Shown in pieces: positions 1 to 62,900 of a DNA stretch of 64,000 nucleotides (position 1 is its first letter; every line of letters starts with the position of its first letter). A model generated the notes under the pieces. It saw nothing but the letters and a program-made list of their open reading frames with translations. It was not told the DNA's origin and did no database searches. The DNA is from the human T2T-CHM13v2.0 reference genome, Homo sapiens. Both the position numbers and the translations under genes were made by a program. The stretch lies in assembly GCF_009914755.1 (NCBI RefSeq), contig NC_060933.1; one strand, given 5' to 3'.

Positions 1-2279
1 CATTCCATTCCATTCCGTTCCGTTCCATTGCATTCCATTCCATTCCATTCCGTTCCGTTCCATTCCATTCCATTCCATTCTATTCGGGTTACTTCCATTC
101 CATTCCATTCGATTGCAATCGAGTTGTTTCCATTCCATTCCATTCCATTGCATTCCATTCCATTCCTTTCCATTCCATTACGGATGATTCCATTCCATTG
201 CATTCCATTCCATTCCATTCCCCTGTACTCGGGTTGATTCCATTCCATTCCATTCCAATCCATGCCATTCCACTCGTGTTGTTTCCATTCTTTCCATTCC
301 ATTCAAGTTGATTCCATTCCATTGCATTCCATTCCATTCGATTCCATTCGATTGCACTCGGGTTGATTCCATTCCATAACATTCCATTCCATTCCATTCC
401 ATTCCATTCCATTCCATTCCATTCCATTGCATTCGGATTGATTCTATTCAATTCCCTTACACTCCATTACATTCCATTCCATTCGGGTAGTTTCCATTCC
501 ATTCCATTCCATTCCTCTCCATTTCATTGCACTCGGGTTGATTCCATTCCATTGCATTCCATTCCATTCCATTCCATTCTATTCCTTTCCATTCCATTCC
601 ATTACATTCCGGAATATTCCATTCCATTGCATTCCATTCCATTCCATTCCCCTTCACTCGCGTTGATTCCAATCTATTCCATTCTATTCCATTCCATTCC
701 CTTCCTTTCCGTTCCATTCCATTCCATTCCATTCCATTCCATTCCGTTCCGTTCCATTCCATTCCATTCCATTCTATTCGGGTTAATTCCATTCCATTCC
801 ATTCGATTGCAGTCGAGTTGATTCCATTCCATTCCATTCCATTCCATTCCATTCCATTCCATTCCTTTCCATTCCATTACGGATGATTCCATTCCATTGC
901 ATTCCATTCCATTCCATTCCCCTGTACTCGGGTTGATTCCATTCCTTTCCATTCCAATCCATGCCCTTCCACTCGTGTTGATTCCATTCTTTCCATTCCA
1001 TCCTAGTTGAATCCATTCCATTGCATTCCATTCCATTCGATTCCATTCGAGTGCAGTCGGGTTGATTCCATTCCATTGCATTCCATTCCATTCCATTCCC
1101 CTGCACTCGCGTTGATTCCATTCTATTCCATTCTATTCCATTCCATTCCCTTCCTTTTCGTTCCATTCCATTCCATTCCATTCCATTCCATTCCGTTCCG
1201 TTCCATTCCATTCCATTCCATTCTATTCGGGTTAATTCCATTCCATTCCATTCGATTGCCATCGAGTTGATTCCATTCCTTTCCATTCCATTCCATTCCA
1301 TTCCTTTCCATTCCATTCCTTTCCATTCCATTACGGATGACTCCATTCCATTGCATTCCATTCCCCTGTACTCGGGTTGATTCCATTGCATTCCATTCCA
1401 CTCCATTCGGTTCCGTTGCATTCCATTCTATTGCATTCCCTTCTATTCGGGTTAATTCCATTCCATTCTATTCCATTCCATTCCATTCCATTCCATTGCA
1501 ATGGAGTTGATTCCATTCCATTCCATTCCATTCAGGATGATTCCATTCCATTGCATTCCATTCCATTCCATTCCCCTGCACTCGTGTTGATTCCATTCCC
1601 TTCCATTCCATTCCATTCCGTTCCATTCCATTCCATTCCATTCTATTCCGGTTAATTCCATTCCATTCCATTCCATTCCATTCCATTCCATTGCAATCGA
1701 GTTGATTCCATTCCATTCCTTTCCATTCCATTCCATTGCCTTGCATTCCACTCGGGTTGATTCCATTCCCTTCTTTCCACTCCATTACATTCTCTTCCAT
1801 TCCACTCGGAATGATTGATTCCATTCCATTCCATTCCATTTCATTCCATTTTAATCCATTCCAATCCATTCCATTCCATTCCATTCCACTCGAGTTGACT
1901 TCATTCCATTCCTTTCCATTCCATTCCATTCCTTTCCACTCGAGTTGATTCCATTCCATTCCAATCCATTGCAATCCATTCCATGCCATTCCACTCGGGT
2001 TGATTCCATTCCTTTGCATTCCATTCCATTCCATTCCATTGCATTCCATTCCATTCCATTCCGTTGCATTCCATTCCATTACATTCGGATTGATTCTATT
2101 CAACTCCCTTACTCTCCATTCCATTCCATTCCATTCGGGTTGTTCCATTCCATTCCATTCCATTCCACTCCATTCCATTGCACTCGGGTTTATTCCATTC
2201 GATTCCATTCCATTCCATTCCATTCCATTCCATTCTATTCCATTCCATTGCAATCGAGTTGAATCCATTGCATTTCATT

Positions 2280-5200
2280 CCATTGCATTCCATTCCATTC
2301 CATTCCCCTGTACTCGGGTTGATTCCATTCCATTTCATTCCAATCCATGCCATTCCACTCGTGTTGATTCCATTCTTTACATTCCATTCAAGTTGAATCC
2401 ATTCCATTGCATTCCATTCCATTCCATTCCCCTGCAGTCGGGTTGATTCCATTCCATTCCATTCCATTCCAATCCGTTCCGTTCCGTTCCATTCCATTCC
2501 ATTCCATTCCTTTCTATTCGGGTTAATTCCATTCCATTCCATTCCATTCCATTCCATTCCAATCAAGTTGATTCCATTCCATTCCATTCCATTCCATTCC
2601 ATTCCATTCCATTCCACTGCATTCCAGTCCTTTCCATTCCATTCCACTCGGGTTGATTCCAATGTATTCCTTTCCATTCCATTCCATTCCATTGCAATCG
2701 AGTTGATTCCATTGCTTTGCATTCCATTCCATTCCATTCCATTCCGGATGATTCCATTCCATTGCATTCCATTCCATTCCATTCCCCTGCATTCGGGTTG
2801 ATTCCATTCCATTCCACTCCATTCCGTTCCATTCCATTCCATTCCATTGTATTCGGGTTAATTCCATTCCATTCCATTCCATTCCATTCCATTACAATCG
2901 AGTTGATTCCATTCCATTCCATTCCATTCCAGTCCTTTCCATTCCATTCCTCTCTGGTTGAGTCCATTCTATTAGTTTCCATTCCATTCCATTCCCTTCC
3001 ATTCCACTCTGGTTGATTCCATTCCTTTCCATTCCACTCGAATACATTCCCTCCTATTCCACTCGGAACGATTCCATTCCATTCCATTCCATTCCGTTCC
3101 ATTCCATTCCATTCCATTCCATTCCATTGTACTCGTGTTGATTCCATTCCATTGCATTCCATTCCATTCCATTCCTTTCCATTCGGATTGATTCTATTCA
3201 ACTCCCTTACTCTCCATTACATTACATTCCATTCGGGTTGTTCCATTCCATTCCATTCCATTCCACTCCATTCCATTGCACTCGGGTTGATTCCATTCCA
3301 TTCAATTCCATTCCATTCCATTCCAGATGATTCCATTCCATTGCATTCCTTTCCATTACATTCCCCTGCACTCGCGTTGATTCCATTCCATTCCATTCAA
3401 TTCCATTCCATTACAATTCGTTCCATTCCATTCTATTCCGTACCATTCCATTCCATTCCATACCATTCCATTCCATTCCATTCCATTCCATTCTTTTCCA
3501 TTCCGTTCCATTCCATTCCATTCCATTCTATTGAGATTAATTCCATTCCATTCCATTCCATTCTATTCCATTCCATTGCAATCGAGTTGAATCCATTGCA
3601 TTTCATTCCATTCCATTCCATTCTATTCCATTCCGGAAGATTCCATTCCATTGCATTCCATTCCATTCCATTCCCCTGCACTCGCGTTGATTCCATTCCA
3701 TTCCATTCCATTCCATTCCGCTCCGTTCCATTCCATTCCATTCCATTCCATTCCGTTCCGTTCCATTCCATTCCATTCCATTCTATTCGGGTTAATTCCA
3801 TTCCATTCCATTCGATTGCAATCGAGTTGATTCCATTCCATTCCATTCCATTCCATTCCATTCCATTCCTTTCCATTCCATTACGGATGATTCCATTCCA
3901 TTGCATTCCATTCCATTCCATTCCCCTGTACTCGGGTTGATTCCATTCCATTCCATTCCAATCCATGCCATTCCACTCGTGTTGATTCCATTCTTTCCAT
4001 TCCATTCAAGTTGAATCCATTCCGTTGCATTCCATTCCATTCCATTCCCCTGCAGTCGGGTTGATTCCATTCCATTCCATTCCATTCCATTCCATTCCAT
4101 TCCGTTCCGTTCCGTTCCGTTCCATTCCATTCCATTCCTTTCTATTCGGGTTAATTCCATTCCATTCCATTCCATTCCATTTCATTCCATTCCAATCAAG
4201 TTGATTCCATTCCATTGCATTCCATTCAATTCCATTCCATTCCATTCCTCTCCATTCCAGTCCTTTCCATTCCATTCCACTCGGGTTTATTCCAATGTAT
4301 TCCTTTCCATTCCATTCCTTTCCATTGCAATCGAGTTGATTCCATTGCTTTGCATTCCATTCCATTCCATTCCATTCCGGATGATTCCATTCCATTGCAT
4401 TCCATTCCATTCCATTCCCCTGCACTCGGGTTGATTCCATTCCATTCCACTCCATTCCATTCCATTCCATTCCATTCCATTGTATTCGGGTTAATTCCAT
4501 TCCATTCCATTCCATTCCATTCCATTCCATTACAATCGAGTTGATTCCATTCCATTCCATTGCATTCCAGTCCTTTCCATTCCATTCCACTCGGGTTGAT
4601 TCCATTCTATTAGTTTCCATTCCATTCCATTCCCTTCCATTCCACTCTGGTTGATTCCATTCCTTTAAATTCCACTCGAATACATTCCCTCCTATTCCAC
4701 TCGGAACGATTCCATTCCATTCCATTCCATTCCATTCCATTCCATTCCATTCCATTCCATTACGGATGATTCCATTCCATTGCATTCCATTCCATTCCAT
4801 TCCCCTGTACTCGGGTTGATTCCATTCCATTTCATTCCAATCCATGCCATTCCACTCGTGTTGATTCCATTCTTTACATTCCATTCAAGTTGAATCCATT
4901 CCATTGCATTCTATTCCATTCCATTCCCCTGCAGTCGGGTTGATTCCATTCCATTCCATTCCATTCCAATCCGTTCCGTTCCGTTCCATTCCATTCCATT
5001 CCTTTCTATTCGGGTTAATTCCATTCCATTCCATTCCATTCCATTCCATTCCAATCAAGTTGATTCCATTCCATTCCATTCCATTCCATTCCATTCCATT
5101 CCATTCCACTGCATTCCAGTCCTTTCCATTCCATTCCACTCGGGTTGATTCCAATGTATTCCTTTCCATTCCATTCCATTCCATTGCAATCGAGTTGATT

Positions 5201-7255
5201 CCATTGCTTTGCATTCCATTCCATTCCATTCCATTCCGGATGATTCCATTCCATTGCATTCCATTCCATTCCATTCCCCTGCATTCGGGTTGATTCCATT
5301 CCATTCCACTCCATTCCGTTCCATTCCATTCCATTCCATTGTATTCGGGTTAATTCCATTCCATTCCATTCCATTCCATTCCATTACAATCGAGTTGATT
5401 CCATTCCATTCCATTCCATTCCAGTCCTTTCCATTCCATTCCTCTCTGGTTGATTCCATTCTATTAGTTTCCATTCCATTCCATTCCCTTCCATTCCACT
5501 CTGGTTGATTCCATTCCTTTCCATTCCACTCGAATACATTCCCTCCTATTCCACTCGGAACGATTCCATTCCATTCCATTCCATTCCGTTCCATTCCATT
5601 CCATTCCATTCCATTCCATTGTACTCGTGTTGATTCCATTCCATTGCATTCCATTCCATTCCATTCCTTTCCATTCGGATTGATTCTATTCAACTCCCTT
5701 ACTCTCCATTACATTACATTCCATTCGGGTTGTTCCATTCCATTCCATTCCATTCCACTCCATTCCATTGCACTCGGGTTGATTCCATTCCATTCAATTC
5801 CATTCCATTCCATTCCAGATGATTCCATTCCATTGCATTCCTTTCCATTACATTCCCCTGCACTCGCGTTGATTCCATTCCATTCCATTCAATTCCATTC
5901 CATTACAATTCGTTCCATTCCATTCTATTCCGTACCATTCCATTCCATTCCATACCATTCCATTCCATTCCATTCCATTCCATTCTTTTCCATTCCGTTC
6001 CATTCCATTCCATTCCATTCTATTGAGATTAATTCCATTCCATTCCATTCCATTCTATTCCATTCCATTGCAATCGAGTTGAATCCATTGCATTTCATTC
6101 CATTCCATTCCATTCTATTCCATTCCGGAAGATTCCATTCCATTGCATTCCATTCCATTCCATTCCCCTGCACTCGCGTTGATTCCATTCCATTCCATTC
6201 CATTCCATTCCGCTCCGTTCCATTCCATTCCATTCCATTCCATTCCGTTCCGTTCCATTCCATTCCATTCCATTCTATTCGGGTTAATTCCATTCCATTC
6301 CATTCGATTGCAATCGAGTTGATTCCATTCCATTCCATTCCATTCCATTCCATTCCATTCCTTTCCATTCCATTACGGATGATTCCATTCCATTGCATTC
6401 CATTCCATTCCATTCCCCTGTACTCGGGTTGATTCCATTCCATTCCATTCCAATCCATGCCATTCCACTCGTGTTGATTCCATTCTTTCCATTCCATTCA
6501 AGTTGAATCCATTCCGTTGCATTCCATTCCATTCCATTCCCCTGCAGTCGGGTTGATTCCATTCCATTCCATTCCATTCCATTCCATTCCATTCCATTCC
6601 GTTCCGTTCCGTTCCGTTCCATTCCATTCCATTCCTTTCTATTCGGGTTAATTCCATTCCATTCCATTCCATTCCATTTCATTCCATTCCAATCAAGTTG
6701 ATTCCATTCCATTGCATTCCATTCAATTCCATTCCATTCCATTCCTCTCCATTCCAGTCCTTTCCATTCCATTCCACTCGGGTTTATTCCAATGTATTCC
6801 TTTCCATTCCATTCCTTTCCATTGCAATCGAGTTGATTCCATTGCTTTGCATTCCATTCCATTCCATTCCATTCCGGATGATTCCATTCCATTGCATTCC
6901 ATTCCATTCCATTCCCCTGCACTCGGGTTGATTCCATTCCATTCCACTCCATTCCATTCCATTCCATTCCATTCCATTGTATTCGGGTTAATTCCATTCC
7001 ATTCCATTCCATTCCATTCCATTCCATTACAATCGAGTTGATTCCATTCCATTCCATTGCATTCCAGTCCTTTCCATTCCATTCCACTCGGGTTGATTCC
7101 ATTCTATTAGTTTCCATTCCATTCCATTCCCTTCCATTCCACTCTGGTTGATTCCATTCCTTTAAATTCCACTCGAATACATTCCCTCCTATTCCACTCG
7201 GAACGATTCCATTCCATTCCATTCCATTCCATTCCATTCCATTCCATTCCATTCC
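2280..7255. repeat. Recent tandem duplication, 2 x ~2.49 kb (~2280-4770 and ~4775-7255)
   Basis: Identical ORF translations at offset 2492 (3152/5644, 2523/5015) and 2497 (4201/6698). Shared rare variants include ttgagattaa (~3531/~6023) and cctttaaattcc (~4662/~7159). Confidence 0.92.
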
Positions 7256-10200
7256 ATTTCGTTCCGTTCCATTCTATTCCGAATCATTCCATTCCATTCC
7301 ATTGCATTCCATTCCATTCCATTCCATTCCATTCCGTTGCATTCCATTCCATTACATTCGGATTGATTCTATTCAACTCCCTTACTCTCCATTACATTAC
7401 ATTCCATTCGGGTTGTTCCATTCCATTCCACTCCATTCCATTGCACTCGGGTTGATTCCATTCCATTCCATTCCATTCCGGATGATTCCATTCCATTGCA
7501 TTCCGTTCCATTACATTCCCCTGCACTCGCGTTGATTCCATTCCATTCCATTCCATTCCATTCAATTCCATTCCATTACAATTCGTTCCATTCCATTCTA
7601 TTCCGTACCATTCCATTCCATTCCATACCATTCCATTCCATTCCATTCCATTCCATTCCGTTCCATTCCGTTCCATTCCATTCCATTCCATTCTATTCGG
7701 ATTAATTCCATTCCATTCCATTCCATTACATTCTATTCCATTCCATTGCAATCGAGTTGAATCCATTGCATTTCATTCCATTCCATTCCATTCCATTCCA
7801 TTCCATTCCGGAAGATTCCATTCCATTGCATTCCTTTCCATTCCATTCCCCTGCACTCGCGTTGATTCCATTCCATACCATTCCATTCCATTCCGTTCCG
7901 TTCCATTCCATTCCATTCCATTCCATTCCATTCCGTTCCCTTCCATTCTATTCCATTCCATTCCATTCGGGTTAATTCCATTCCATTCCATTCGATTGCA
8001 ATCCAGTTGATTCCATTCCATTCCATTCCATTCCATTCCATTCCATTCCATTCCTTTCCATTCCATTACGGATGATTCCATTCCATTGCATTCCATTCCA
8101 TTCCATTCCCCTGTACTCGGGTTGATTCCATTCCATTCCATTCCAATCCATGCCATTCCACTCGTGTTGATTCCATTCTTTCCATTCCATTCAAGTTGAA
8201 TCCATTGCATTGCATTCCATTCAATTCGATTCCATTCGATTGCACTCGGGTTTATTCCATTCCATTGCATTCCATTCCATTCCATTCCATTCCATTCCAT
8301 TCCATTCCATTCCATTCGGATTGATTCTATTCAACTCCCTTACTCTCCATTACATTCCATTCCATTCGGGTTGTTCCATTCCATTCCATTCCATTCCACT
8401 GCATTCCACTGCACTCGGGTTGATTCCATTCCATTCCATTCCATTCCATTCCATTCCAGTCCTTTCCATTCCATTCCACTCGGGTTGATTCCATTCTATT
8501 GGTTTCCATTCCATTCCATTCCCTTCCATTCCACTCTGGTTGATTCCATTCCTTTCCATTCCACTCGAATACATTCTCTCCTATTCCACTCGGAATGATT
8601 CCATTCCATTCCATTCCATTCCATTCCATTCCATTTCGTTCCATTCCATTCTATTCCGTATCATTCCATTCCATTCCATTCCATTCCGTTCCATTGTACT
8701 CGGGTTGATTCCATTCCATTGCATTCCATTCCATTCCATTCCATTCCATTCCATTCCATTCCATTGCGTTCCATTCCATTCCATTCCATTCGGATTGATT
8801 CTATTCAATTCCCTTACACTCCATTACATTCCATTCCATTCGGGTAGTTTCCATTCCATTCCATTCCATTCCTCTCCATTCCATTGCACTCGGGTTGATT
8901 CCATTCCATTGCATTCCATTCCATTCCATTCAATTCCATTCCGTTCCATTCCATTCCATTACATTCGGATTGATTCTATTCAACTCCCTAACTCTCCATT
9001 ACATTCCATTCCATTCGGGTTGATCCATTCCATTCCATTCCATTCCACTCCATTCCATTGCACTCGGGTTGATTCCATTCCATTCCATTCCATTCCATTC
9101 CATTCCATTCCATTCCATTCCGGATGATTCCATTCCATTGCATTCCGTTCCATTACATTCCCCTGCACTCGGGTTGATTCCATTCCATTCCATTCCATTC
9201 CATTCCATTCCATTCCATTCCATTCCAATTCTTTCCATTCCATTCTATTCCGTACCATGCCATTCCATTCCATACAACACCATTCCATTCCATTCCACTC
9301 CGTTCCGTTCCGTTCCGTTCCGTTCCGTTCCATTCCATTCCATTGCATTCTATTCGGGTTAATTCCATTCCATTCCATTCGATTGCAATCGAGTTGATTC
9401 CATTCCATTCCATTCCATTCCATTCCATTCCATTCCATTCCATTCCTTTCCATTCCATTACGGATGATTCCATTCCATTGCATTCCATTCCATTCCATTT
9501 CCCTGTACTCGGGTTGATTCCATTCCATTTCATTCCAATCCATGCCATTCCACTCGTGTTGATTCCATTCTTTCCATTCCATTCAAGTTGAATCCATTCC
9601 ATTGCATTCCATTCCATTCCATTCCCCTGCATTCGGGTTGTTTCCATTCCATTCCATTCCATTCCATTCCATTCCATTCCATTCCATTCCGTTCTGTTCC
9701 ATTCCATTCCATTCCATTCTATTCGGGTTAATTCCATTCCTTTCCATTCCATTCCATTCCATTCCATTCCAATCTAGTTGATTCCATTCCATTCCATTCC
9801 ATTCCATTCCACTCCATTCCAGTCCATTCCATTCCATTCCACTCGGGTTGATTCCAATGTATTCCTTTCCATTCCATTCCATTCCATTGCAATCGAGTTG
9901 ATTCCATTGCTTTGCATTCCATTCCATTCCATTCCATTCCGGATGATTCCATTCCATTGCATTCCATTCCATTCCATTCCCCTGCACTCGGGTTGATTCC
10001 ATTCCATTCCACTCCATTCCATTCCATTCCATTCCATTCCGTTGTATTCGGGTTAATTCCATTCCATTCCATTCCATTCCATTCCATTCCCTTCCATTCC
10101 ATTCCAATCCATTACAATCGAGTTGATTCCATTCCATTCCATTCCATTCCATTCCATTCCATTCCATTCCATTCCTTTCCATTCCATTCCACTCGGGTTG

Positions 10201-13200
10201 ATTCCATTCTATTAGTTTCCATTCCATTCCATTCCCTTCCATTCCACTCTGGTTGATTCCATTCCTTTCCATTCCACTCGAATACATTCCCTCCTATTCC
10301 ACTCGGAACGATTCTATTCCATTCCATTCCATTCCATTCCATTCCATTCCATTTCGTTCCATTCCATTCTATTCCGTACCATTCCATTCCATTCCATTCC
10401 TTTCCATTCCATTCCATTCCACTCGTGTTGATTCCATTCCTTTCCATTCCATTCGGTTTGAAAGCATTCCATTCCATTCAATTCCACTCCATTCCATTCC
10501 ATTCCATTCCATTCCATTCCATTCCATTCCATTCCATTGTACTCGGGTTGATTCCATTCCATTGCATTCCATTCCATTCCATTCCATTCCATTCCATTCC
10601 ATTCCATTCCATTCCGTTGCATTCCATTCCATTCCATTCCCCTGCACTCGCGTTGATTCCATTCCATTCCATTCCATTCCATTCCATTCCGTTCCGTTCC
10701 ATTGCATTCCATTCCATTCCATTCCGTTCCGTTCCATTCCATTCCATTCCATTCTATTCGGGTTACTTCCATTCCATTCCATTCGATTGCAATCGAGTTG
10801 ATTCCATTCCATTCCATTCCATTGCATTCCATTCCATTCCTTTCCATTCCATTACGGATGATTCCATTCCATTGCATTCCATTCCATTCCATTCCCCTGT
10901 ACTCGGGTTGATTCCATTCCATTCCATTCCAATCCATGCCCTTCCACTCGTGTTGATTCCATTCTTTCCATTCCATTCAAGTTGAATCCATTCCATTGCA
11001 TTCCATTCCATTCGATTCCATTCGATTGCACTCGGGTTGATTCCATTCCATTGCATTCCATTCCATTCCATTCCATTCCATTCCATTCCGTTCCATTCCA
11101 TTCCATTATATTCGGATTGATTCTATTCAATTCCCTTACACTCCATTACATTCCATTCCATTCGGGTAGTTTCCATTCCATTCCATTCCATGCCTCTCCA
11201 TTCCATTGCAATCGGGTTGATTCCATTCCATTGCATTCCATTCCATTCCATTCAATTCCATTCCGTTCCATTCCATTCCATTACATTCGGATTGATTCTA
11301 TTCAACTCCCTTACTCTCCATTACATTCCATTCCATTCGGGTTGTTCCATTCCATTCCATTCCATTCCACTCCATTCCATTGCACTCGGGTTTATTCCAT
11401 TCGATTCCATTCCATTCCATTCCATTCCATTCCATTCTATTCCATTCCATTGCAATCGAGTTGAATCCATTGCATTTCATTCCATTGCATTCCATTCCAT
11501 TCCATTCCCCTGTACTCGGGTTGATTCCATTCCATTTCATTCCAATCCATGCCATTCCACTCGTGTTGATTCCATTCTTTACATTCCATTCAAGTTGAAT
11601 CCATTCCATTGCATTCCATTCCATTCCATTCCCCTGCAGTCGGGTTGATTCCATTCCATTCCATTCCATTCCAATCCGTTCCGTTCCGTTCCATTCCATT
11701 CCATTCCTTTCTATTCGGGTTAATTCCATTCCATTCCATTCCATTCCATTCCATTCCAATCAAGTTGATTCCATTCCATTCCATCCCATTCCATTCCATT
11801 CCATTCCATTCCACTGCATTCCAGTCCTTTCCATTCCATTCCACTCGGGTTGATTCCAATGTATTCCTTTCCATTGCATTCCATTCCATTGCAATCGAGT
11901 TGATTCCATTGCTTTGCATTCCATTCCATTCCATTCCATTCCGGATGATTCCATTCCATTGCATTCCATTCCATTCCATTCCCCTGCATTCGGGTTGATT
12001 CCATTCCATTCCACTCCATTCCGTTCCATTCCATTCCATTCCATTGTATTCGGGTTAATTCCATTCCATTCCATTCCATTCCATTCCATTACAATCGAGT
12101 TGATTCCATTCCATTCCATTCCATTCCAGTCCTTTCCATTCCATTCCTCTCTGGTTGATTCCATTCTATTAGTTTCCATTCCATTCCATTCCCTTCCATT
12201 CCACTCTGGTTGATTCCATTCCTTTCCATTCCACTCGAATACATTCCCTCCTATTCCACTCGGAACGATTCCATTCCATTCCATTCCATTCCGTTCCATT
12301 CCATTCCATTCCATTCCATTCCATTGTACTCGTGTTGATTCCATTCCATTGCATTCCATTCCATTCCATTCCTTTCCATTCGGATTGATTCTATTCAACT
12401 CCCTTACTCTCCATTACATTACATTCCATTCGGGTTGTTCCATTCCATTCCATTCCATTCCACTCCATTCCATTGCACTCGGGTTGATTCCATTCCATTC
12501 CATTCCATTCCATTCCATTCCATTCCATTCCGGAAGATTCCATTCCATTGCATTCCATTCCATTCCATTCCCCTGCACTCGCGTTGATTCCATTCCATTC
12601 CATTCCACTCCATTGCATTCCATTCCATTCCTTTCCGTTCCATTCCATTCCATTCCATTCCATTCCAATCCATTCCATTCCGTTCCGTTCCGTTCCATTC
12701 CATTCCATTCCATTCTATTCGGGTTAATTCCATTCCATTCCATTCGATTGCAATCGAGTTGATTCCATTCCATTCCATTCCATTCCATTCCATTCCATTC
12801 CATTCCATTACTTTCCATTCCATTACGGATGATTCCATTCCATTGCATTCCATTCCATTCCATTCCCCTGTACTCGGGTTGATTCCATTCCATTCCATTC
12901 CAATCCATGCCATTCCACTCGTGTTAATTGCATTCTTTCCATTCCATTCAAGTTGAATCCATTCCATTGCATTCCCTTGCATTCCATTCCCCTGCAGTCG
13001 GGTTGATTCCATTCCATTCCATTCCATTCCGTTCCATTCCATTCCATTCCGTTCTGTTCCATTCCATTGCATTCCATTCTATTCGGGTTAATTCCATTCC
13101 ATTCCATTCCATTCCATTCCAATCGAGTTGATTCCATTCGATTCCATTCCATTCCATTCCACTCCATTCCAGTCCTTTCCATTCCATTCCACTCGGGTTG

Positions 13201-37300: not shown

Positions 37301-38085
37301 GAATGGAATGGAATGGAATGGAATTAATCCGAATAGAATGGAATGGAATGGAATGGAACGGAATGGAACGGAATGGAATGGAATGGAATGGAATGGTATG
37401 GAATGGAATGGAATGGTACGGAATAGAATGGAATGGAACGAATTGTAATGGAATGGAATTGAATGGAATGGAATGGAATGGAATGGAATCAACGCGAGTG
37501 CAGGGGGATGTAATGGAACGGAATGCAATGGAATGGAATCATCCGGAATGGAATGGAATGGAATGCAATGGAATGGAATCAACCCGAGTACAATGGAATG
37601 GAGTGGAATGGAATGGAATGGAATGGAATCAACCGGAATGGAATGGAATGGAATGGAATGGAATGGAATCAACCCGAGTGCAATGGAATGCAGAGGAATG
37701 GAATGGAATGGAACGGAAACTACCCGAATGGAATGTAATGTAATGGAGTGTAAGGGAATTGAATAGAATGAATCCGAATGGAATGTAAAGGAATGGAAAG
37801 GAATGGAATGGAATGGAATGGAATGGAATGGAATGGAATGCAATGCCATGGAATCAACACGAGTGCAATCGAATGGAATCGAATGGAATGGGATGTAATG
37901 GAATGGATTCATCTTGAATGGAATGGAAAGAACGGAATCAACACGAGTGGAATGGCATGGATTGGAATGGAATGGATTGGAATCAACCCGAGTACAGGGG
38001 AATGGCATGGAATGGAATGAAATGGAATCGAATCATCCGTAACGTAATGGAAAGGAATGGAAAGGAATGGAATGGAATGGAATGG
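34335..38085. repeat. Recent tandem duplication, 2 x ~1.87-1.88 kb (~34335-36200 and ~36205-38085)
   Basis: ORF pairs at offsets 1873 (34637/36510) and 1883 (35286/37169, 35895/37778). Shared rare variants include catcagtaa, taaggcaattg, ggaaaggtataga, gaaattcaatcgattc and catccgtaac. Confidence 0.92.
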
Positions 38086-50000: not shown

Positions 50001-51436
50001 AATAGAATGGAATGGAACGGAATGGAACGCAATGGAATGGAATCATCCGGAACGGAACGGAATGGAATGGAATGGAATCAACTCGATTGCAATGGAATGG
50101 AATGGAATGGAATGGAATGGAATGGAGTGGATTCAACCCGAGTGAAGGGGAATGGAATGGAATTGAATGCAATGGAATGGAATCATCCGGAATGGAATGG
50201 AATGGAATGGAATGGAATGAACCCGATGCAATGGAATGGAATGGAATGGAATGGAATGGAATGGAATGGAATGGAATGGAAAAATCCCGAATGGAATGGA
50301 ATGTAATGGAGTGTAAGGGAATTGAATAGAATCAGTCCGAATGTAATGGAATGGAATGGAATGAAATGGAATGGAATGGAATAGAATGGAATCAACCCGA
50401 GTGGAATGGAATGCAAAGGACTGGAATGCACTGGAATGGAATGGAATGGAATGGAATCAAATCGATTGCAATGGAATGGAATGGAATGGAATCAACTCGA
50501 TTACAATGGAATGGAATGGAATGGAATGGAATGGAATTAACCCGAATAGAATGGAATGGAATGGAATGGAACGGAATGTAATGGAATGAAATGGAATGGA
50601 ATCAACCCGAGTGCAGGGGAATGGAATGGAATGGAATGCAATGGAATGGAATCATCCGGAATGGAATTGAATGGAATGGAATGGAATGGAATGGAATGGA
50701 ATGGAATGGAATGGAATCAACTCGATTGCAATGGAATGGAATGGAATGGAAGGGAATGGAAGGGAATGGAGTGGAATGTAATCAACCCGAGTGCAGGGGA
50801 ATGGAATGGAATGGAATGCAATGGAATGGAATCATCCGGAATGGAATGGAATGGAATGGAATGCAATCAACCCAATGCAATGGAATGGAGTGGAATGGAA
50901 TGGAAAGGAATGGAAACATCCCGAATGGAACGGAATGGAATGGAGTGTAAGGGAATTGAATAGAATCAATCCGAATTTAATGGAATGCAATGGAATGAAA
51001 TGGAATGGAATGGAATGGAATGGAATCAACCCGAGTGCAATGGAATGGATACGAATGGAATGGAATGGAATGGATTCAACAAGAATGGAAGGGAAAGGAA
51101 TGGAATCAACCCGAGTGTAATGGCATGGAATGGAATGGAATGGAATGGAATGGGATGGAATGGAATGGTACGGAATAGAATGGAATGGAATGAAATGGAA
51201 TGGAATGGAATGGAATGGAATGGAATGGAATGGAATGAACCCGTGTGCAATGTAATGGAATGGAATGGAATGGAATGGATTCAACTCGAATGGAATCAAC
51301 TCGATTGCAATGGAATGGAATGGAATGGAAAGGAATAGAATGGAATCAACCCGAGTGGAATGGAATGGAAAGGACTGGAATGGAGTGGAATGGAATGGAA
51401 TGGAATTAACCCGAATAGAATGGAATGGAATGGAAT

Positions 51437-51481
51437 GGAACGGAACGGAACGGAACGGAACGGAACGGAACGGAACGGAAC
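51437..51481 (+). repeat. (GGAAC)9 variant-pentamer run
   Basis: Nine consecutive GGAAC units, the longest such run seen in the window. Confidence 0.9.
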
Positions 51482-54400
51482 GGAATGGAATGGAATGGAA
51501 TGGAATGGAATGGAATGGAATGGAATTAACACGAATAGAATGGAATGGAATTGAATTGAATGGAATGGAATGGAACAGAAAGGAATGGAATGGAATGGAA
51601 TGGAATCAACCCAAGTGCAGGGGAATGGAATGGAATCATCCGGAATGGAATGGAATGGAATGGAATGGAATGGAATGGAATGGAATGGAATCAACCCGAG
51701 TGCAATGGAATGGAGAGGAATGGAATGGAATGGAATGGAAACTACCCGAATGCAATGTAATGTAATGGAGTGTAAGGGAATTGAATAGAATGCATCCGAA
51801 TGGAATGGAATGGAATGGAAAGGAATGGAATGGAATGGAATGGAATGGAATGGAATGCAATGCCATGGAATCAACACGAGTGCAATCGAATGGAATCGAA
51901 TGGAATGGAATGCAATGGAATAGATTCATCTTGAATGGAATGGAAATAATGGAATCAACACGAGTGGAATGGCATGGATTGGAATGGAATGGAATGGAAT
52001 CAACCCGAGTACAGGGGAATGGAATGGAATGGAATGAAACGGAATGGAATCATCCGTAATGTAATGGAAAGGAATGGAATGGAATGGAATGGAATGGAAT
52101 GGAATCAACTCGATTGCAATCGAATGGAGTGGAATGGAATAAACACGAATAGAATGGAATGGAATGGAATGGAATGGAACGGAACGGAATGGAATGGAAT
52201 GGAATGGAATGGATCGGAACGGAACGGAACGGAATGGAATGGAATGGAATGGAATGGAATCAACCCGAGTACAGGGGAATGGAATGGAATGGAATGCAAT
52301 GGAACGGAATCATCCGTAATGGAATGGAAAGGAATGGAATGGAATGGAATGGAATGGAATGGAATTAACTCGATTGCAATCGAATGGAATGGAATGGAAT
52401 TAACCCGAATAGAATGGAATGGAATGGAACGGAATGGAACGGAACGGAATGGAAAGGAATGGAATGGAACGGAATGGAACGGAATGCAATGCAATGGAAT
52501 GGAATGGAATGGAATCAACGCGAGTGCAGGGGAATGGAATGGAATGGATTGCAATGGAATGGAATCTTCCGGAATGGAATGGAATGGAATGGAATGCAAT
52601 GGATTCAACTCGATTGCAATGGAATGGAATAGAATAGAATGGAATGGAATGGAATGGAATTAACCCGAATAGAATGGAATGGAATGGAATGGAATGGAAC
52701 GGAATGGAACGGAATGGAATGGAATGGAATGGAATGGAATGGAATGGTATGGAATGGAATGGAATCGAATGGTACGGAATAGAATGGAATGGAACGAATT
52801 GGAATGGAATGGAATCGAATGGAATCGAATGGAATGGAATGGAATCAACCCGAATGCAGGGGAATGTAATCGAACGGAATGCAATGGAATGGAATCATCC
52901 GGAATGGAATGGAATGGAATGGAATGGAATGGAATCAACCCGAGTGCAATGGAATGGAGTGGAATGGAATGGAATGGAATGGAACAACCCGAATGGAATG
53001 GAATGTAATGGAGAGTAAGGGAGTTGAATAGAATCAATCCGAATGTAATGGAAAGGAATCGAACGGAATGGAATTGAATGGAATGGAATGGAATGGAATG
53101 CAATGGAATGGAATCAACCCGAGTACAATGGAATGGAATGGAATGGAATGGAATCAACCCGAGTGCAATGGAATAGAGAGGAATGGAATGGAAAGGAATG
53201 GAAACTAACCGAATCGAATGGAATGTAATGGAGTGTAAGGGAATTGAATAGAATCAATCCGAATGGAATGGAATGGAATGGAACGGAATGTAATGCAATG
53301 GAATGGAATGGAATCAACCCGAGTGCAGGGTAATGGAATGGAATGGAATGCAATGGAATGGAATCATCCGGAATGGAATGGATTGGAATGGAATGGAATT
53401 AACCCGAGTGCAAAGGAATGGAGTGAAATGGAATGGAATGGAAGGGAAACAACCAGAATGGATTGGAATATAATGGAGTGTAAGGGAATTGAATAGAATC
53501 AATCTGAATGTAATGAAATGGAATGGAACGGAATGGAATTGAGTGGAATGGAAAGGAATGCAATGGAATGGAATCAACCCGAGTGCAATCGAATGGAATC
53601 GAATGGAATGGAATGCAATGGAATGGATGCAACTTGAATGGAATGGAAAGAATGGGATCAACACGATTGGAATGGCATGGATTGGAATGGAATGGAATGG
53701 AATCAACCCGAGTACAGGGGAATGGAATGGAATGGAATGCAATGGAATGGAATCATCCGTAATGGAATGGAAAGGAATGGAATGGAATGGAATGGAATGG
53801 AATGGAATGGAATGGAATGGAATCAACTCGATTGCAATCGAATGGAATGGAATGGAATTAACCCGAATAGAATGGAATGGAATGGAATGGAATGGAACGG
53901 AACGTAATGGAATGGAATGGAATCAACGCGAGTGCAGGGGAATGGAATGGAATGGAATGCAATGGGATGGAAACTTCCGGAATGGAATGGAATGGAATGG
54001 AATGGAATGGAATCAACCCGAGTACAGGGGAATGGAATGGAATGGAATGCAATGGAATGGAAACATCCGTAATGGAATGGAAAGGAATGGAATGGAATGG
54101 AATGGAATGGAATGGAATGGAATGGAATGGAATCAACTCGATTGCAATCGAACGGAATGGAATGGAATGGAATGGAATGGAATCAACTCGATTGCAATGG
54201 AATGGAATGGAATGGAATGGAATGGAATAGAATTAACCCGAATAGAATTGAATGGAATGGAATGGAAAGGAATGGAAGGAAATGGAATGGAATGTAATCA
54301 ACCCAAGTGCAGGGGAATGGAATGGAATTGAATGCAATGGAATGGAATCATCCGGAATGGAATGGAATGGAATGGAATGGAATGAACCCGATGCAATGGA

Positions 54401-57400
54401 ATGGAATGGAATGGAATGGAATGGAATGGAATGGAATGGAAAAATCCCGAATGGAATGGAATGTAATGGAGTGTAAGGGAATTGAATAGAATCAGTCCGA
54501 ATGTAATGGAATGGAATGGAATGAAATGAAATGGAATGGAATGGAATGGAATCAAACCGAGTGCAATGGAATGGATTCGAATGGAATGAAATGGAATGCA
54601 AAGTATTAGAATGGAATCAACCCGAGTGGAATGGAATGGAAAGGACTGGAATGGATTGGAATGGAATGGAATGGAATGGAATGGAATCAACTCCATTGTA
54701 ATGGAATGGAATGGAATGGAATGGAATGGAATGGAATGCAATGGAATGGAATCAACCCGAGTGCAATCGAATGGAATCGAATGGAATGGAATGCAATGGA
54801 ATGGATTCAACTTGAATGGAATGGAAAGAATGGAATCAACACGAGTGGAATGGCATGGATTGGAATAGAATGGAATGGAATCAACCCGAGTACAGGGGAA
54901 TGGAATGGAATGGAATGCAATGGAATGGAATCATCCGTAATGGAATGGAAAGGAATGGAATGGAATGGAATGGAATGGAATGGAATGGAATGGAATGGAA
55001 TGGTATGGAATGGAATGGAATGGAATGGAATCAACGCGAGTGCAGGGGAATGTAATGGAACGGAATGCAATGGAATGGAATCATCCGGAATGGAATGGAA
55101 TGGAATGGAATGGAATGGAATCAACCCGAGTGCAATGGAATGCAGTGGAATGGAATGGAATGGAATGGAACAACCCGAATGGAATGGAATGTAATGGAGA
55201 GTAACGGAGTTGAATAGAATCAATCCGAATGTAACGGAATGGAATGGAACGGAATGGGATGGAACGGAATGCAATGGAATGGAATCAACCAGAGTACAAT
55301 GGAATGGAATGGAATGGAATGGAATGTAATGGAATGGAATGGAATGGAGTGGAATTGCATGGAATGGAATGGCTTCAAACCGAATGGAATGGAAAAGAAT
55401 GGAATCAACACGAGTGAAATGGAATGGAATGGAATGGAATGGAATGCTGTGGAATGGAATGGAATGGTACGGAATAGAATGGAATGGAACGAATTGGAAT
55501 GGAATGGAATCGAATGGAATGGAATGGAATGGAATGGAATCAACGCGATTGCAGGGGAATGTAATAGAACGGAATGCAATGGAATGGAATCATCCGGAAT
55601 GGAATGGAATGGAATGGAATGGAATGGAATGCAATGGAATGGAATCAACCCGAGTGCAATGGAATGGAGTGGAATGGAATGGAATGGAATGGAAGAACCC
55701 GAATGGAATGGAATGTAATGGAGAGTAAGGGAGTTAAAAAGAATCAATCCGAATGTAATGGAATGGAATGGAACGGAATGGAATGGAACGGAATGGAATG
55801 GAATGGAATGGAATGGAATCAACCCGAGTACAGGGGAATGGAATGGAATGGAATGCAATGGAATGGAATCATCCGTAATGGAATGGAAAGGAATGGAATG
55901 GAATGGAATGGAATGGAATGGAATGGAATGGAATGGAATCAACTCGATTGCAATCGAATGGAATGGAATGGAATTAACCCGAATAGAATGGAATGGAATG
56001 GAATGGAATGGAACGGAACGGAATGGAATGGAATGTAATGGAATGGAATGGAATCAACGCGAGTGCAGGGGAATGGAATGGAATGGAATGCAATGGGATG
56101 GAAACTTCCGGAATGGAATGGAATGGAATGGAATGGAATGGAATCAACCCGAGTACAGGGGAATGGAATGGAATGGAATGCAATGGAATGGAAACATCCG
56201 TAATGGAATGGAAAGGAATGGAATGGAATGGAATGGAATGGAATGGAATGGAATGGAATGGAATCAACTCGATTGCAATCGAATGGAATGGAATGGAATT
56301 AACCCGAATAGAATGGAATGGAATGGAATGGAACGGAGCGGAACGGAACGGAATGGCATGGAATGGAATGGAAAGGAATTGAATGGAATGGAATGAACGC
56401 GAGTGCAGGGGAATGGAATGGAATGGAATGCAATGGAATGGAATCTTCTGGAATGGAATGGAATGGAATGCAATGGAATGGAATGGAATAAACCCGAGTG
56501 CAATGGAATGGAGTGGAATGGAATGGAATGGAATGGAACAACCCGAATGGAATGGAATGTAATGGAGAGTAAGGGAGTTGAAAAGAATCAATCCGAATGT
56601 AATGGAATGGAATGGAACGGAATGGAATGGAATGGAATGGAATGGAATGGAATGGAATGGAATGCAATGGAATGGAATCAACCCGAGTACAACGGAATGG
56701 AATGGAATGGAATGGAATGGAATGGAATGGAATGGAATGGAATGGAATGCAATGGAATGGAATCTTCCGGAATGGAATGGAATGGAATGGAATGGAATGG
56801 AATGGAATGGAATAAACCCGAGTGCAATGGAATGGAGTGGAATGGAATGGAATGGAATGGAACAACCCGAATGGAATGGAATGTAATGGAGAGTAGGGGA
56901 GTTGAATAGAATCAATCCGAATGTAATGGAATGGAATGGAACGGAATGGAATTGAATGGAATGGAATGGAATGCAATGGAATGGAATCAACCCGAGTGCA
57001 ATGGAATGGAGAGGAATGGAATGGAATGGAATGGAAACTACCCGAATGGAATGGAATGTAATGGAGTGTAAGGGAATTGAATAGAATCAATCCGACTGTA
57101 ATGGAATGGAATGGAACGGAATGGAATGGAATGGAATGCAGTGGAATGGAATGGAATGCAATGGAATGGAATCAACCCGAGTGCAATCGAATGGAATCGA
57201 ATGGAATGGAATGCAATGGAATGGATTCATCTTGAATGGAATGGAAAGAATGGAATCAACACGAGTGGAATGGCATGGATTGGAATGCAATGGAGTGGAA
57301 TCAACCCGAGTACAGGGGAATCGAATGGAATGGAATGCAATGGAATGGAACCATCCGTAGTGGAATGGAAAGGAATGGAATGGAATGGAATGGAATGGAA

Positions 57401-59892
57401 TGGAATGGAATCAACACGATTGCAATAGAATGGAATGGAATGGAATTAACCCGAAAAGAATGGAATGGAATGGAATGGAACGGAACGGAATGGAATGGAA
57501 TGGAACGGAATGGAATGGAATTGAATGGAATGGAATGGAATGGAATCAACGCGAGTGCAGGGGAATGGAAGGTAGTGGAATGCAATGGAATGGAATCTTC
57601 CGGAATGGAATGGAGTGGAATGGAATGGAATCAACCCGAGTGCAATGGAATGGAGTGGAATGGAATGGAATGGAATGGAACAACCAGAATGGAATCGAAT
57701 GTAATGGAGAGTAAGGGAGTTGAATAGAATCAATCCGAATGTAATGGAATGGAATGGAAAGGAATGGAATTGAATGGAATGGAATGGAATGCAATGGAAT
57801 GGAATCAACCCGAGTGCAATGGAATGGAGAGGAATGGAATGGAATGGAGTGGAAACTACCCGAATGGAATGGAATGTAATGGAGTGTAAGGGAATTGAAT
57901 AGAATCAATCCGAATATAATGGAAAGGAATGGAACGGAATGGAATGGAATGGAATGGAATGGAATGGAATGGAATGCAATGGAAAGAAATCAACCCGAGT
58001 GCAATCGAATGGAATCGAATGGAATGGAATGCAATGGAATGAAATCAACTCGATTGCAATCGAATGGAATGGAATGGAATTAACCCGAATAGAATGGAAT
58101 GGAATGGAATGGAAAGGAACGGAACAGAACGGAATGGAATGGAATGTAATGGAATGGAATGGAATGGAATGGAATCAACCCGACTGAAGGGGAATGGAAT
58201 GGAATGGAATGCAATGGAATGAATTCAACTTGAATGGAATGGAAAGAATGGAATCAACACGAGTGGAATGGCATGGATTGCAATGGAATGGAATGGAATC
58301 AACCCGAGTACAGGGGAATGGAATGGAATGGAATGCAATGGAATGGAATCATCCGTAATGGAATGGAAAGGAATGGAATGGAATGGAATGGAATGGAATG
58401 GAATGGAATGGAATGGAATCAACTCGATTTCAATGGAATGGAATGGAATGGAATTAACCCGAATAGAATGGAATGGAACGGAATGGAACGCAATGGAATG
58501 GAATCATCCGGAACGGAACGGAATGGAATGGAATGGAATCAACTCGATTGCAATGGAATGGAATGGAATGGAATGGAATGGAATGGAGTGGATTCAACCC
58601 GAGTGAAGGGGAATGGAATGGAATTGAATGCAATGGAATGGAATCATCCGGAATGGAATGGAATGGAATGGAATGGAATGAACCCGATGCAATGGAATGG
58701 AATGGAATGGAATGGAATGGAATGGAATGGAATGGAAAAATCCCGAATGGAATGGAATGTAATGGAGTGTAAGGGAATTGAATAGAATCAGTCCGAATGT
58801 AATGGAATGGAATGGAATGAAATGGAATGGAATGGAATAGAATGGAATCAACCCGAGTGGAATGGAATGCAAAGGACTGGAATGCACTGGAATGGAATGG
58901 AATGGAATGGAATCAAATCGATTGCAATGGAATGGAATGGAATGGAATCAACTCGATTACAATGGAATGGAATGGAATGGAATGGAATGGAATTAACCCG
59001 AATAGAATGGAATGGAATGGAATGGAACGGAATGTAATGGAATGAAATGGAATGGAATCAACCCGAGTGCAGGGGAATGGAATGGAATGGAATGCAATGG
59101 AATGGAATCATCCGGAATGGAATTGAATGGAATGGAATGGAATGGAATGGAATGGAATGGAATGGAATGGAATCAACTCGATTGCAATGGAATGGAATGG
59201 AATGGAAGGGAATGGAAGGGAATGGAGTGGAATGTAATCAACCCGAGTGCAGGGGAATGGAATGGAATGGAATGCAATGGAATGGAATCATCCGGAATGG
59301 AATGGAATGGAATGGAATGCAATCAACCCAATGCAATGGAATGGAGTGGAATGGAATGGAAAGGAATGGAAACATCCCGAATGGAACGGAATGGAATGGA
59401 GTGTAAGGGAATTGAATAGAATCAATCCGAATTTAATGGAATGCAATGGAATGAAATGGAATGGAATGGAATGGAATGGAATCAACCCGAGTGCAATGGA
59501 ATGGATACGAATGGAATGGAATGGAATGGATTCAACAAGAATGGAAGGGAAAGGAATGGAATCAACCCGAGTGTAATGGCATGGAATGGAATGGAATGGA
59601 ATGGAATGGGATGGAATGGAATGGTACGGAATAGAATGGAATGGAATGAAATGGAATGGAATGGAATGGAATGGAATGGAATGGAATGGAATGAACCCGT
59701 GTGCAATGTAATGGAATGGAATGGAATGGAATGGATTCAACTCGAATGGAATCAACTCGATTGCAATGGAATGGAATGGAATGGAAAGGAATAGAATGGA
59801 ATCAACCCGAGTGGAATGGAATGGAAAGGAGTGGAATGGAGTGGAATGGAATGGAATGGAATTAACCCGAATAGAATGGAATGGAATGGAAT

Positions 59893-59937
59893 GGAACGGA
59901 ACGGAACGGAACGGAACGGAACGGAACGGAACGGAAC
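59893..59937 (+). repeat. (GGAAC)9 variant-pentamer run, duplicate copy
   Basis: Same run at offset 8456 in the second copy of the 8.46 kb unit. Confidence 0.9.
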
Positions 59938-62900
59938 GGAATGGAATGGAATGGAATGGAATGGAATGGAATGGAATGGAATTAACACGAATAGAATGGA
60001 ATGGAATTGAATTGAATGGAATGGAATGGAACAGAAAGGAATGGAATGGAATGGAATGGAATCAACCCAAGTGCAGGGGAATGGAATGGAATCATCCGGA
60101 ATGGAATGGAATGGAATGGAATGGAATGGAATGGAATGGAATGGAATCAACCCGAGTGCAATGGAATGGAGAGGAATGGAATGGAATGGAATGGAAACTA
60201 CCCGAATGCAATGTAATGTAATGGAGTGTAAGGGAATTGAATAGAATGCATCCGAATGGAATGGAATGGAATGGAAAGGAATGGAATGGAATGGAATGGA
60301 ATGGAATGGAATGCAATGCCATGGAATCAACACGAGTGCAATCGAATGGAATCGAATGGAATGGAATGCAATGGAATAGATTCATCTTGAATGGAATGGA
60401 AATAATGGAATCAACACGAGTGGAATGGCATGGATTGGAATGGAATGGAATGGAATCAACCCGAGTACAGGGGAATGGAATGGAATGGAATGAAACGGAA
60501 TGGAATCATCCGTAATGTAATGGAAAGGAATGGAATGGAATGGAATGGAATGGAATGGAATCAACTCGATTGCAATCGAATGGAGTGGAATGGAATAAAC
60601 ACGAATAGAATGGAATGGAATGGAATGGAATGGAACGGAACGGAATGGAATGGAATGGAATGGAATGGAATGGATCGGAACAGAACGGAACGGAATGGAA
60701 TGGAATGGAATGGAATGGAATCAACCCGAGTACAGGGGAATGGAATGGAATGGAATGCAATGGAACGGAATCATCCGTAATGGAATGGAAAGGAATGGAA
60801 TGGAATGGAATGGAATGGAATGGAATTAACTCGATTGCAATCGAATGGAATGGAATGGAATTAACCCGAATAGAATGGAATGGAATGGAACGGAATGGAA
60901 CGGAACGGAATGGAAAGGAATGGAATGGAACGGAATGGAACGGAATGCAATGCAATGGAATGGAATGGAATGGAATCAACGCGAGTGCAGGGGAATGGAA
61001 TGGAATGGATTGCAATGGAATGGAATCTTCCGGAATGGAATGGAATGGAATGGAATGCAATGGATTCAACTCGATTGCAATGGAATGGAATAGAATAGAA
61101 TGGAATGGAATGGAATGGAATTAACCCGAATAGAATGGAATGGAATGGAATGGAATGGAACGGAATGGAACGGAATGGAATGGAATGGAATGGAATGGAA
61201 TGGAATGGTATGGAATGGAATGGAATCGAATGGTACGGAATAGAATGGAATGGAACGAATTGGAATGGAATGGAATCGAATGGAATCGAATGGAATGGAA
61301 TGGAATCAACCCGAATGCAGGGGAATGTAATCGAACGGAATGCAATGGAATGGAATCATCCGGAATGGAATGGAATGGAATGGAATGGAATGGAATCAAC
61401 CCGAGTGCAATGGAATGGAGTGGAATGGAATGGAATGGAATGGAACAACCCGAATGGAATGGAATGTAATGGAGAGTAAGGGAGTTGAATAGAATCAATC
61501 CGAATGTAATGGAATGGAATCGAACGGAATGGAATTGAATGGAATGGAATGGAATGGAATGCAATGGAATGGAATCAACCCGAGTACAATGGAATGGAAT
61601 GGAATGGAATGGAATCAACCCGAGTGCAATGGAATAGAGAGGAATGGAATGGAAAGGAATGGAAACTAACCGAATCGAATGGAATGTAATGGAGTGTAAG
61701 GGAATTGAATAGAATCAATCCGAATGGAATGGAATGGAATGGAACGGAATGTAATGCAATGGAATGGAATGGAATCAACCCGAGTGCAGGGTAATGGAAT
61801 GGAATGGAATGCAATGGAATGGAATCATCCGGAATGGAATGGATTGGAATGGAATGGAATTAACCCGAGTGCAAAGGAATGGAGTGAAATGGAATGGAAT
61901 GGAAGGGAAACAACCAGAATGGATTGGAATATAATGGAGTGTAAGGGAATTGAATAGAATCAATCTGAATGTAATGAAATGGAATGGAACGGAATGGAAT
62001 TGAGTGGAATGGAAAGGAATGCAATGGAATGGAATCAACCCGAGTGCAATCGAATGGAATCGAATGGAATGGAATGCAATGGAATGGATGCAACTTGAAT
62101 GGAATGGAAAGAATGGGATCAACACGATTGGAATGGCATGGATTGGAATGGAATGGAATGGAATCAACCCGAGTACAGGGGAATGGAATGGAATGGAATG
62201 CAATGGAATGGAATCATCCGTAATGGAATGGAAAGGAATGGAATGGAATGGAATGGAATGGAATGGAATGGAATGGAATGGAATCAACTCGATTGCAATC
62301 GAATGGAATGGAATGGAATTAACCCGAATAGAATGGAATGGAATGGAATGGAATGGAACGGAACGTAATGGAATGGAATGGAATCAACGCGAGTGCAGGG
62401 GAATGGAATGGAATGGAATGCAATGGGATGGAAACTTCCGGAATGGAATGGAATGGAATGGAATGGAATGGAATCAACCCGAGTACAGGGGAATGGAATG
62501 GAATGGAATGCAATGGAATGGAAACATCCGTAATGGAATGGAAAGGAATGGAATGGAATGGAATGGAATGGAATGGAATGGAATGGAATGGAATCAACTC
62601 GATTGCAATCGAACGGAATGGAATGGAATGGAATGGAATGGAATCAACTCGATTGCAATGGAATGGAATGGAATGGAATGGAATGGAATAGAATTAACCC
62701 GAATAGAATTGAATGGAATGGAATGGAAAGGAATGGAAGGAAATGGAATGGAATGTAATCAACCCAAGTGCAGGGGAATGGAATGGAATTGAATGCAATG
62801 GAATGGAATCATCCGGAATGGAATGGAATGGAATGGAATGGAATGAACCCGATGCAATGGAATGGAATGGAATGGAATGGAATGGAATGGAATGGAATGG

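What the first reader, a model, noticed from the sequence alone, without database searches (positions are those of the whole stretch)
606..62445. A recurrent satellite module is a perfect trimeric heat-shock element, roughly one per 1.5 kb
Seen: ATTCCGGAAGATTCC / GGAATCTTCCGGAAT equals nTTCnnGAAnnTTCn. Manual count gives about 21 copies on the left (e.g. 3630, 6122, 7805, 12527, 14255, 16348, 22592, 24950, 28241, 30410) and about 25 on the right (e.g. 32287, 32891, 34683, 38334, 41804, 47175, 52561, 61022). Most variants noticed change only n positions (gaat/gaag at 606, gttt at 15938, cttca ~40330, cttct ~44414, gaaac ~53969), with few core-breaking ones (~29620, ~43158). The sister module TTCCGGATGATTCC is a one-mismatch HSE. 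Established: HSF1 trimers bind alternating inverted nGAAn units, and HSF1 drives SatIII transcription in nuclear stress bodies; plain (GGAAT)n is head-to-tail and not a canonical HSE. Inference: this module may be the specific HSF1 landing site that makes some HSat3 subfamilies stress-inducible.
Basis: partly seen in the sequence, partly recalled or inferred. Interest (0 to 1): 0.7.

Follow-up and report, generated by a model that had tools for sequence, protein, structure and literature searches.

The report
Heat-shock elements in chromosome 9 satellite
The large satellite repeat block on human chromosome 9 carries a textbook three-part heat-shock element about every 1.4-2 kb (an estimated 14,000 copies), which is likely where the stress factor HSF1 docks to start nuclear stress bodies; the general idea is already in print, but the exact site is untested.

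Summary
Confirmed: 46 perfect nTTCnnGAAnnTTCn sites (21 left, 25 right of a strand switch at 32032/33); 37 are exactly ATTCCGGAAGATTCC. The site is one of three paralogous variants (GAA, GAT, TAC-GAT) of a fixed HSat3B5 sub-repeat, so it arose once and was amplified. Genome-wide the exact 14-mer occurs 12,854 times. It is in 19 of 20 chr9 samples, extrapolation puts about all copies on chr9, and a rare variant maps 83 of 83 to chr9. Y-chromosome DYZ1, the other primary stress-body site, has three unrelated perfect HSEs; small chr14/15/20 HSat3 and chr1/16 HSat2 samples had none. Chr9 plus Y hold roughly 37% of the genome's 76,189 perfect three-unit sites (estimate). Prior art: HSF1 ChIP follows motif density in HSat3 (bioRxiv 2024), perfect HSEs in DYZ1 (2021), unpublished putative HSEs at 9q12 (2022 review). 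I did not find the exact sequence or a census in print. Binding to this 15-mer is inferred. A canonical HSE in a known target; moderate interest because it gives a direct test of why 9q12 is chosen.

The parts
1..32032 (+). HSat3 (CATTC)n block, C-rich strand on +; chr9 HSat3B5 array
   Evidence: TRF period 5, 6,416 copies; B5 label from the hsat3_9_3(B5) interval in PMC11622622, which contains the window
32033..64000 (-). Same satellite inverted (GAATG)n
   Evidence: TRF; strand counts
32028..32037 (.). Strand-switch (inversion) junction at 32032/32033; creates no HSE
   Evidence: over 200 such breakpoints reported for this array and beta-satellite arrays
606..30424 (+). 21 perfect three-unit HSEs, 15-mers starting at 606, 3630, 6122, 7805, 12527, 14255, 15938, 16348, 17814, 18808, 19467, 20305, 22592, 22807, 23447, 24755, 24950, 25365, 25750, 28241, 30410
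32287..62444 (-). 25 perfect three-unit HSEs, 15-mers starting at 32287, 32891, 34683, 35332, 36556, 37215, 38334, 38714, 40329, 41804, 44414, 44703, 45726, 47175, 47984, 48298, 49131, 52561, 53969, 56100, 56440, 56759, 57592, 61022, 62430
3630..3644 (+). Type copy ATTCCGGAAGATTCC: TTC-CG-GAA (tail-to-tail, pyrimidine-purine step, a CpG) then GAA-GA-TTC (head-to-head, A before TTC)
   Evidence: geometry compared with PMC8379338 section 11
2742..63551 (.). 49 GAT sister modules (TTCCGGATGATTCC), one mismatch from a perfect HSE at the third base of the middle unit
3879..3894 (+). Example of the TAC-GAT paralog (ATTACGGATGATTCC, 37 copies), not an HSE; typically 220-305 bp downstream of a GAA module; used as control
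29619..29640 (+). Broken module (indel after GGAAGA)
43158..43172 (-). Broken module (one core substitution)

Best explanation
The 15-mer is a canonical three-unit heat-shock element fixed in the chr9 HSat3B5 repeat and amplified with it to an estimated 14,000 copies, and it is likely the main sequence-specific docking site by which activated HSF1 trimers pick out 9q12. Shown: the sequence, its geometry, copy number, near restriction to chr9, and unrelated perfect HSEs at similar density in DYZ1. Inferred: one trimer binds each site after stress; a site every 1.4-2 kb over 27.6 Mb, helped by weaker GAT sisters, raises local HSF1 enough to nucleate a stress body and recruit coactivators and Pol II. 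Origin (inferred): a single T/A difference between paralogous sub-repeats, spread by satellite turnover, with no clear sign of selection on individual copies.
For: 46 sites in the window. 148 of 150 HSEs in window plus chr9 samples have the pyrimidine-purine step and 138 of 150 the A before the last TTC, both favoured in HSF-DNA structures. 104 HSEs in 200 kb, 19 of 20 chr9 stretches. Exact 14-mer 12,854 genome-wide against 12,434 (bootstrap 9,532-15,473) extrapolated for chr9 alone; only 7 scattered hits on chr1-8; a rare variant 83 of 83 on chr9. Of 18,965 HSEs with CA..CAT flanks, 13,780 are the chr9-type family and 4,374 one DYZ1 word, leaving 811. DYZ1: 5 HSEs of three types in 6.6 kb; chr14, 15, 20 HSat3 and chr1, 16 HSat2: 0 in 21.6 kb, about 11 expected at chr9 density. 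Chr9 and Y are the reported primary HSF1 targets. HSF1 ChIP is enriched where HSat3 motif density is high. Heat-induced RNA maps along the whole chr9 array, as do the sites.
Against: No binding data for this 15-mer. Only three units; no four-unit site in 264 kb, and about 47,000 other perfect three-unit sites lie elsewhere in the genome, most presumably unbound (recalled). HSF1 bound the 158-bp pHuR98 probe, whose nGAAn units the authors called non-canonical, and a crystal with head-to-tail SatIII repeats exists (cited). Published matrix-based HSF1 enrichment is about 10 for chr9 B5 segments, about 16 for Y A6, but 18.6 for chr15 A5 and 9-47 for A1/A2 arrays, so a looser motif does not single out chr9 and Y. 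HT1080 cells form bodies on Y and not on chr9, so sequence is not sufficient. 139 of 150 sites contain a CpG of unknown methylation effect. My non-chr9 sampling is small and missed A1/A2 arrays. Core conservation is inconclusive.
Confidence: 0.65

Rival explanations
1. Bulk avidity: HSF1 binds plain head-to-tail GGAAT runs or structures they form, and chr9 and Y win only because they are the largest arrays; the perfect HSE is a passenger.
For: pHuR98 binding with non-canonical organisation and preference for slow-migrating probe forms; head-to-tail SatIII co-crystal cited; chr9 is the largest array.
Against: HSF1 ChIP is uneven and follows motif density while TEAD, which reads the pentamer, is even; TEAD1 stains the 8-Mb chr15 array, which is not named a primary HSF1 target and had 0 perfect sites in 7.2 kb; pHuR98 needed about 4 times more HSF1 than an HSE.
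Confidence: 0.12
2. Mixed code: perfect and one-mismatch sites (GAT sister and others) contribute comparably, so the GAA module is one of several landing words.
For: One-mismatch sites that keep the G are twice as dense as perfect ones on chr9 (1.07 vs 0.52 per kb) and DYZ1 (1.97 vs 0.76); the GAT 18-mer has 19,083 copies; matrix-based enrichment is broad.
Against: The chr1 HSat2 sample has 1.67 such sites per kb and chr15 0.56, yet neither is named a primary target in the passages read.
Confidence: 0.15
3. Chromatin or cofactor choice: which array forms a stress body is set mainly by methylation, accessibility or a partner protein; the HSE is at most permissive.
For: HT1080 forms bodies only on Y although its chr9 binds HSF1 in vitro; the site carries a CpG.
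Against: Recombinant HSF1 binds 9q12 on protease-treated chromosome spreads (legend); this rival is compatible with the best explanation as a second layer.
Confidence: 0.08

Closest known systems
Canonical heat-shock element (three alternating nGAAn units) bound by HSF1/HSF2 trimers (PMC8379338)
   Same: Three contiguous alternating units, pyrimidine-purine step between TTC and GAA, purine before each GAA, A before TTC.
   Different: Lies in heterochromatic satellite, not a promoter; minimal three units; G rather than A before each GAA; central CpG; thousands of near-identical copies.
Perfect HSEs in DYZ1 / HSat3A6 at Yq12 (PMC7889540)
   Same: Perfect HSEs interspersed in HSat3 at a primary stress-body locus, at similar density (0.76 vs 0.52-0.72 per kb).
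   Different: Different words with no shared spacer bases or flanks; the chr9 word was absent from both DYZ1 samples, pointing to separate origins.
HSF1 motif-dense HSat3 sub-regions bound in heat-shock ChIP-seq (10.1101/2024.10.22.616524)
   Same: HSF1 motifs in HSat3 correlate with HSF1 ChIP signal.
   Different: That work used a JASPAR matrix, gives no site sequence in the text I read, and does not rank chr9 highest; the strict census here singles out chr9 and Y.
pHuR98 / head-to-tail SatIII binding by HSF1 (PMC2173303)
   Same: Direct HSF1 binding to chr9 satellite III.
   Different: Those authors judged the nGAAn arrangement non-canonical; the array in fact holds many canonical sites.

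Membership tests
Canonical HSE | At least three contiguous alternating inverted nGAAn units | tested here: met
   46 sites; definition in PMC8379338
Canonical HSE | Pyrimidine-purine step in the tail-to-tail spacer, purine before GAA | tested here: met
   148 of 150; preference
Canonical HSE | Extended array (four or more units) for cooperative multi-trimer binding (optional, recalled) | tested here: not met
   0 four-unit sites in window and 200 kb of chr9 samples
Canonical HSE | Bound by HSF1 after stress | not testable with these tools
   Only region-level published ChIP
Canonical HSE | Needed for HSF1-dependent transcription nearby | not testable with these tools
   No perturbation data found
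Selected regulatory element | Cores more conserved than spacers, beyond a non-functional control | tested here: inconclusive
   GAA lineage core 0.8% vs n 2.6%; TAC control 1.1% vs 2.3%; GAT lineages core 2.4%; central G variants 1.07% vs 1.37% in the sister
HSat3B5 (chr9) | (CATTC)n-derived array at 9q12 | tested here: met
   hub coordinates fall in the B5 interval given
HSat3B5 (chr9) | Subfamily k-mer assignment | not tested
   Label taken from papers, not recomputed

The most novel reading that the evidence does not exclude
Stress-body site choice is written in sequence: two satellite arrays (chr9 B5 and Y DYZ1) independently fixed perfect HSEs and together hold over a third of all perfect three-unit HSEs in a male genome, forming an HSF1 sink whose size varies with array length and whose central CpG may act as a methylation switch.
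Probability: 0.3. Interest if true: 0.7.

Novelty: new member of a known kind. Interest (0 to 1): 0.45.

Why it matters
Why HSF1 picks 9q12 has stayed vague since 2002, when the repeats were judged non-canonical; a 2022 review says the number of sites is unknown and a 2023 review speaks of 'HSE-like sequences'. A named 15-mer with built-in paralogous controls (GAT, TAC-GAT) turns this into a k-mer query on public ChIP data and a three-oligo EMSA, and gives a count for comparing chr9 with Y and between people.

Tried and rejected
Chance from base composition: rejected. Forty-six independent origins: rejected, copies share flanks and spacing. Selection on cores: not accepted, because the control lineage shows the same trend, distinct substitution types do not differ (5 of 27 vs 7 of 18, p 0.18), pentamer positions A1 and C5 vary more across the array, and copies are not independent. 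HSE created at the inversion junction: no. Six of 12 stretches missed HSat2/3 (L021, L022, L027, L029, L030, L032) and were left out of the density comparison. A BLAST self-comparison timed out and was replaced by k-mer diagonals. The exact-sequence literature search gave 149 papers; none of the 40 listed concerns satellites by title. The 2016 HSF1-SatIII structure paper is not held. No paper was found on CpG methylation and HSE affinity. No ape or other human genome was available.

Full report
Observation. The window is two HSat3 blocks, (CATTC)n at 1-32032 and (GAATG)n at 32033-64000. TTCnnGAAnnTTC occurs 21 times on the left and, reverse-complemented, 25 times on the right; 37 of the 46 are exactly ATTCCGGAAGATTCC. 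Mean spacing is 1,391 bp. Low-order Markov models give about 1 site and order 5 gives 18.5; order 6 and above reproduce the count because the word is a fixed part of the repeat.

Anatomy. The module is one of three paralogs with the same downstream context: GAA (37 exact copies in the window), GAT (47) and TAC-GAT (37). A TAC-GAT module typically follows a GAA module by 220-305 bp. GAA and GAT differ by one base, so the HSE likely arose once and spread by satellite turnover (inference). Across window and chr9 samples, 148 of 150 HSEs have a pyrimidine-purine step between TTC and GAA, 138 have A before the last TTC and 139 contain a CpG; none has four units. The first two features match auxiliary contacts in HSF-DNA structures (PMC8379338, passages and section 11).

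Distribution. The exact 14-mer occurs 12,854 times genome-wide against 21 for the reversed control, with 7 scattered hits on chr1-8 before the listing enters chr9 (listings stop at 100 rows). Twenty 10-kb stretches along the chr9 array held 104 perfect HSEs, in 19 of 20 stretches. Extrapolation gives 12,434 exact 14-mers (9,532-15,473) for chr9 alone (array bounds recalled, 27.6 Mb length). A rare variant whose listing is complete maps 83 of 83 to chr9, and a GAT variant 94 of 94. Of 18,965 HSEs with CA..CAT flanks, 13,780 are the GAAG family and 4,374 one DYZ1 word, leaving 811; this census misses HSEs with other flanks. Two DYZ1 samples held 5 HSEs of three unrelated words; a second word has 4,614 copies, the first 100 all on contig C24 (C24 taken as Y from its length, recalled). 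Of 12 stretches aimed at other arrays, 6 hit HSat2/3 (chr14, chr15 twice, chr20, chr1, chr16; subfamily labels recalled) and held 0 perfect sites in 21.6 kb; the other 6 missed and were dropped. The genome holds 76,189 perfect three-unit sites with a reverse-strand excess of 14,055 that the control pattern lacks and that fits three mostly reverse DYZ1 words. Chr9 (about 14,350 by extrapolation) and Y thus hold about 37% (estimate); a few thousand sites in small arrays are not excluded.

Selection test. I collected 616 family sites, assigned 380 to four lineages by downstream flanks only, and dropped 236 that fit none. GAA lineage: core 9 of 1,107, n positions 19 of 738 (p 0.003). TAC-GAT control: 12 of 1,089 and 17 of 726 (p 0.054). 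The two core rates do not differ (p 0.52), though GAA cores vary less than pooled GAT cores, 29 of 1,224 (p 0.003); distinct substitution types 5 of 27 vs 7 of 18 (p 0.18). Genome-wide, changes of the central G to A or C number 124 in the GAA module and 248 in GAT, about 1.07% and 1.37% of estimated parents; at the spacer G 196 and 94, about 1.69% and 0.52%. Inconclusive.

What is in print. PMC2173303 (passages, section 8): HSF1 binds pHuR98 at over 12.5 ng against over 3 ng for an HSE, and the authors say the nGAAn organisation differs from a canonical HSE. PMC7889540 (passages; supplements unreadable, and they may show site sequences): four perfect HSEs per DYZ1 unit, ChIP support, and a guess that Y has more HSEs than chr9; I saw three words per unit and similar totals. 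PMC9032817 (passages): number of sites unknown, putative 9q12 HSEs unpublished. PMC10505914 (passages): 'HSE-like sequences'. 10.1101/2024.10.22.616524 (passages, section 5, supplementary table rows): HSF1 motifs lie in HSat3 sub-regions and heat-shock ChIP follows them; matrix enrichment is about 10 on chr9 B5, about 16 on Y A6, 18.6 on chr15 A5 and 9-47 on A1/A2 arrays, which does not single out chr9 and Y and counts against a simple reading of my census. PMC11622622 (passages): heat-induced RNA along the whole chr9 array and at other HSat3 loci. PMC4022460 and 10.1101/2021.07.12.452052 (passages): B5 on chr9, inversions. PMC13634412, PMC13705371 and PMC5499866 (passages) name no site. The 2016 SatIII co-crystal is known to me only through. 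Searches did not turn up the exact word or a count; figures and subscription papers were not visible.

Mechanism. Most likely (0.65), activated HSF1 trimers dock on these sites; the density over 27.6 Mb, with weaker GAT sisters, concentrates HSF1 enough to nucleate a stress body and recruit coactivators and Pol II. The sequence, count and distribution are shown; binding and causation are inferred. Rivals are a mixed code (0.15), bulk pentamer avidity (0.12) and chromatin choice (0.08). The HSE gives no obvious reason for G-rich strand bias of the RNA.

Verdict. Real, a canonical HSE by sequence, in a known HSF1 target. The concept is largely anticipated; the exact word, its paralogous controls and the chr9/Y census appear unreported in what I could search and make an old question directly testable. 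New member of a known kind; interest 0.45.

Noticed in passing
window 32032/32033: Clean strand switch. If RNA is G-rich on both arms, transcription would diverge from this junction.
   Followed up: partly
G000:C9 about 55-59.3 Mb vs 65.7-70 Mb: Rare variants recur with the same strand at an offset near 10.6 Mb (56,305,234/66,931,494; 56,585,196/67,197,162; 57,218,208/67,838,129; 58,821,405/69,423,247), suggesting a multi-megabase duplication inside the array that would include this window.
   Followed up: no
window right arm and left arm: Strong 8.4-kb self-match in the right arm and 2.4-kb in the left arm, with a 1.8-kb period also seen on the right: local tandem duplications.
   Followed up: partly
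L001 and G000:C9 49.07-49.29 Mb: The array's proximal edge is rich in GAT modules but nearly lacks the GAA module until about 49.287 Mb: a natural GAT-only control region.
   Followed up: partly
G000:C5 49.72-49.91 Mb: Six perfect HSEs in satellite context, a different spacer from the chr9 word in five: sporadic sites in a small array.
   Followed up: no
G000:C24 28.69-29.2 Mb: An inverted DYZ1 block, with a shortened 2.38-kb unit at 28.80-28.83 Mb that keeps one HSE word and lacks another.
   Followed up: no
window, central CG of the module: Variants CA and TG at the CpG fit methyl-C deamination, implying germline methylation inside the HSE.
   Followed up: no
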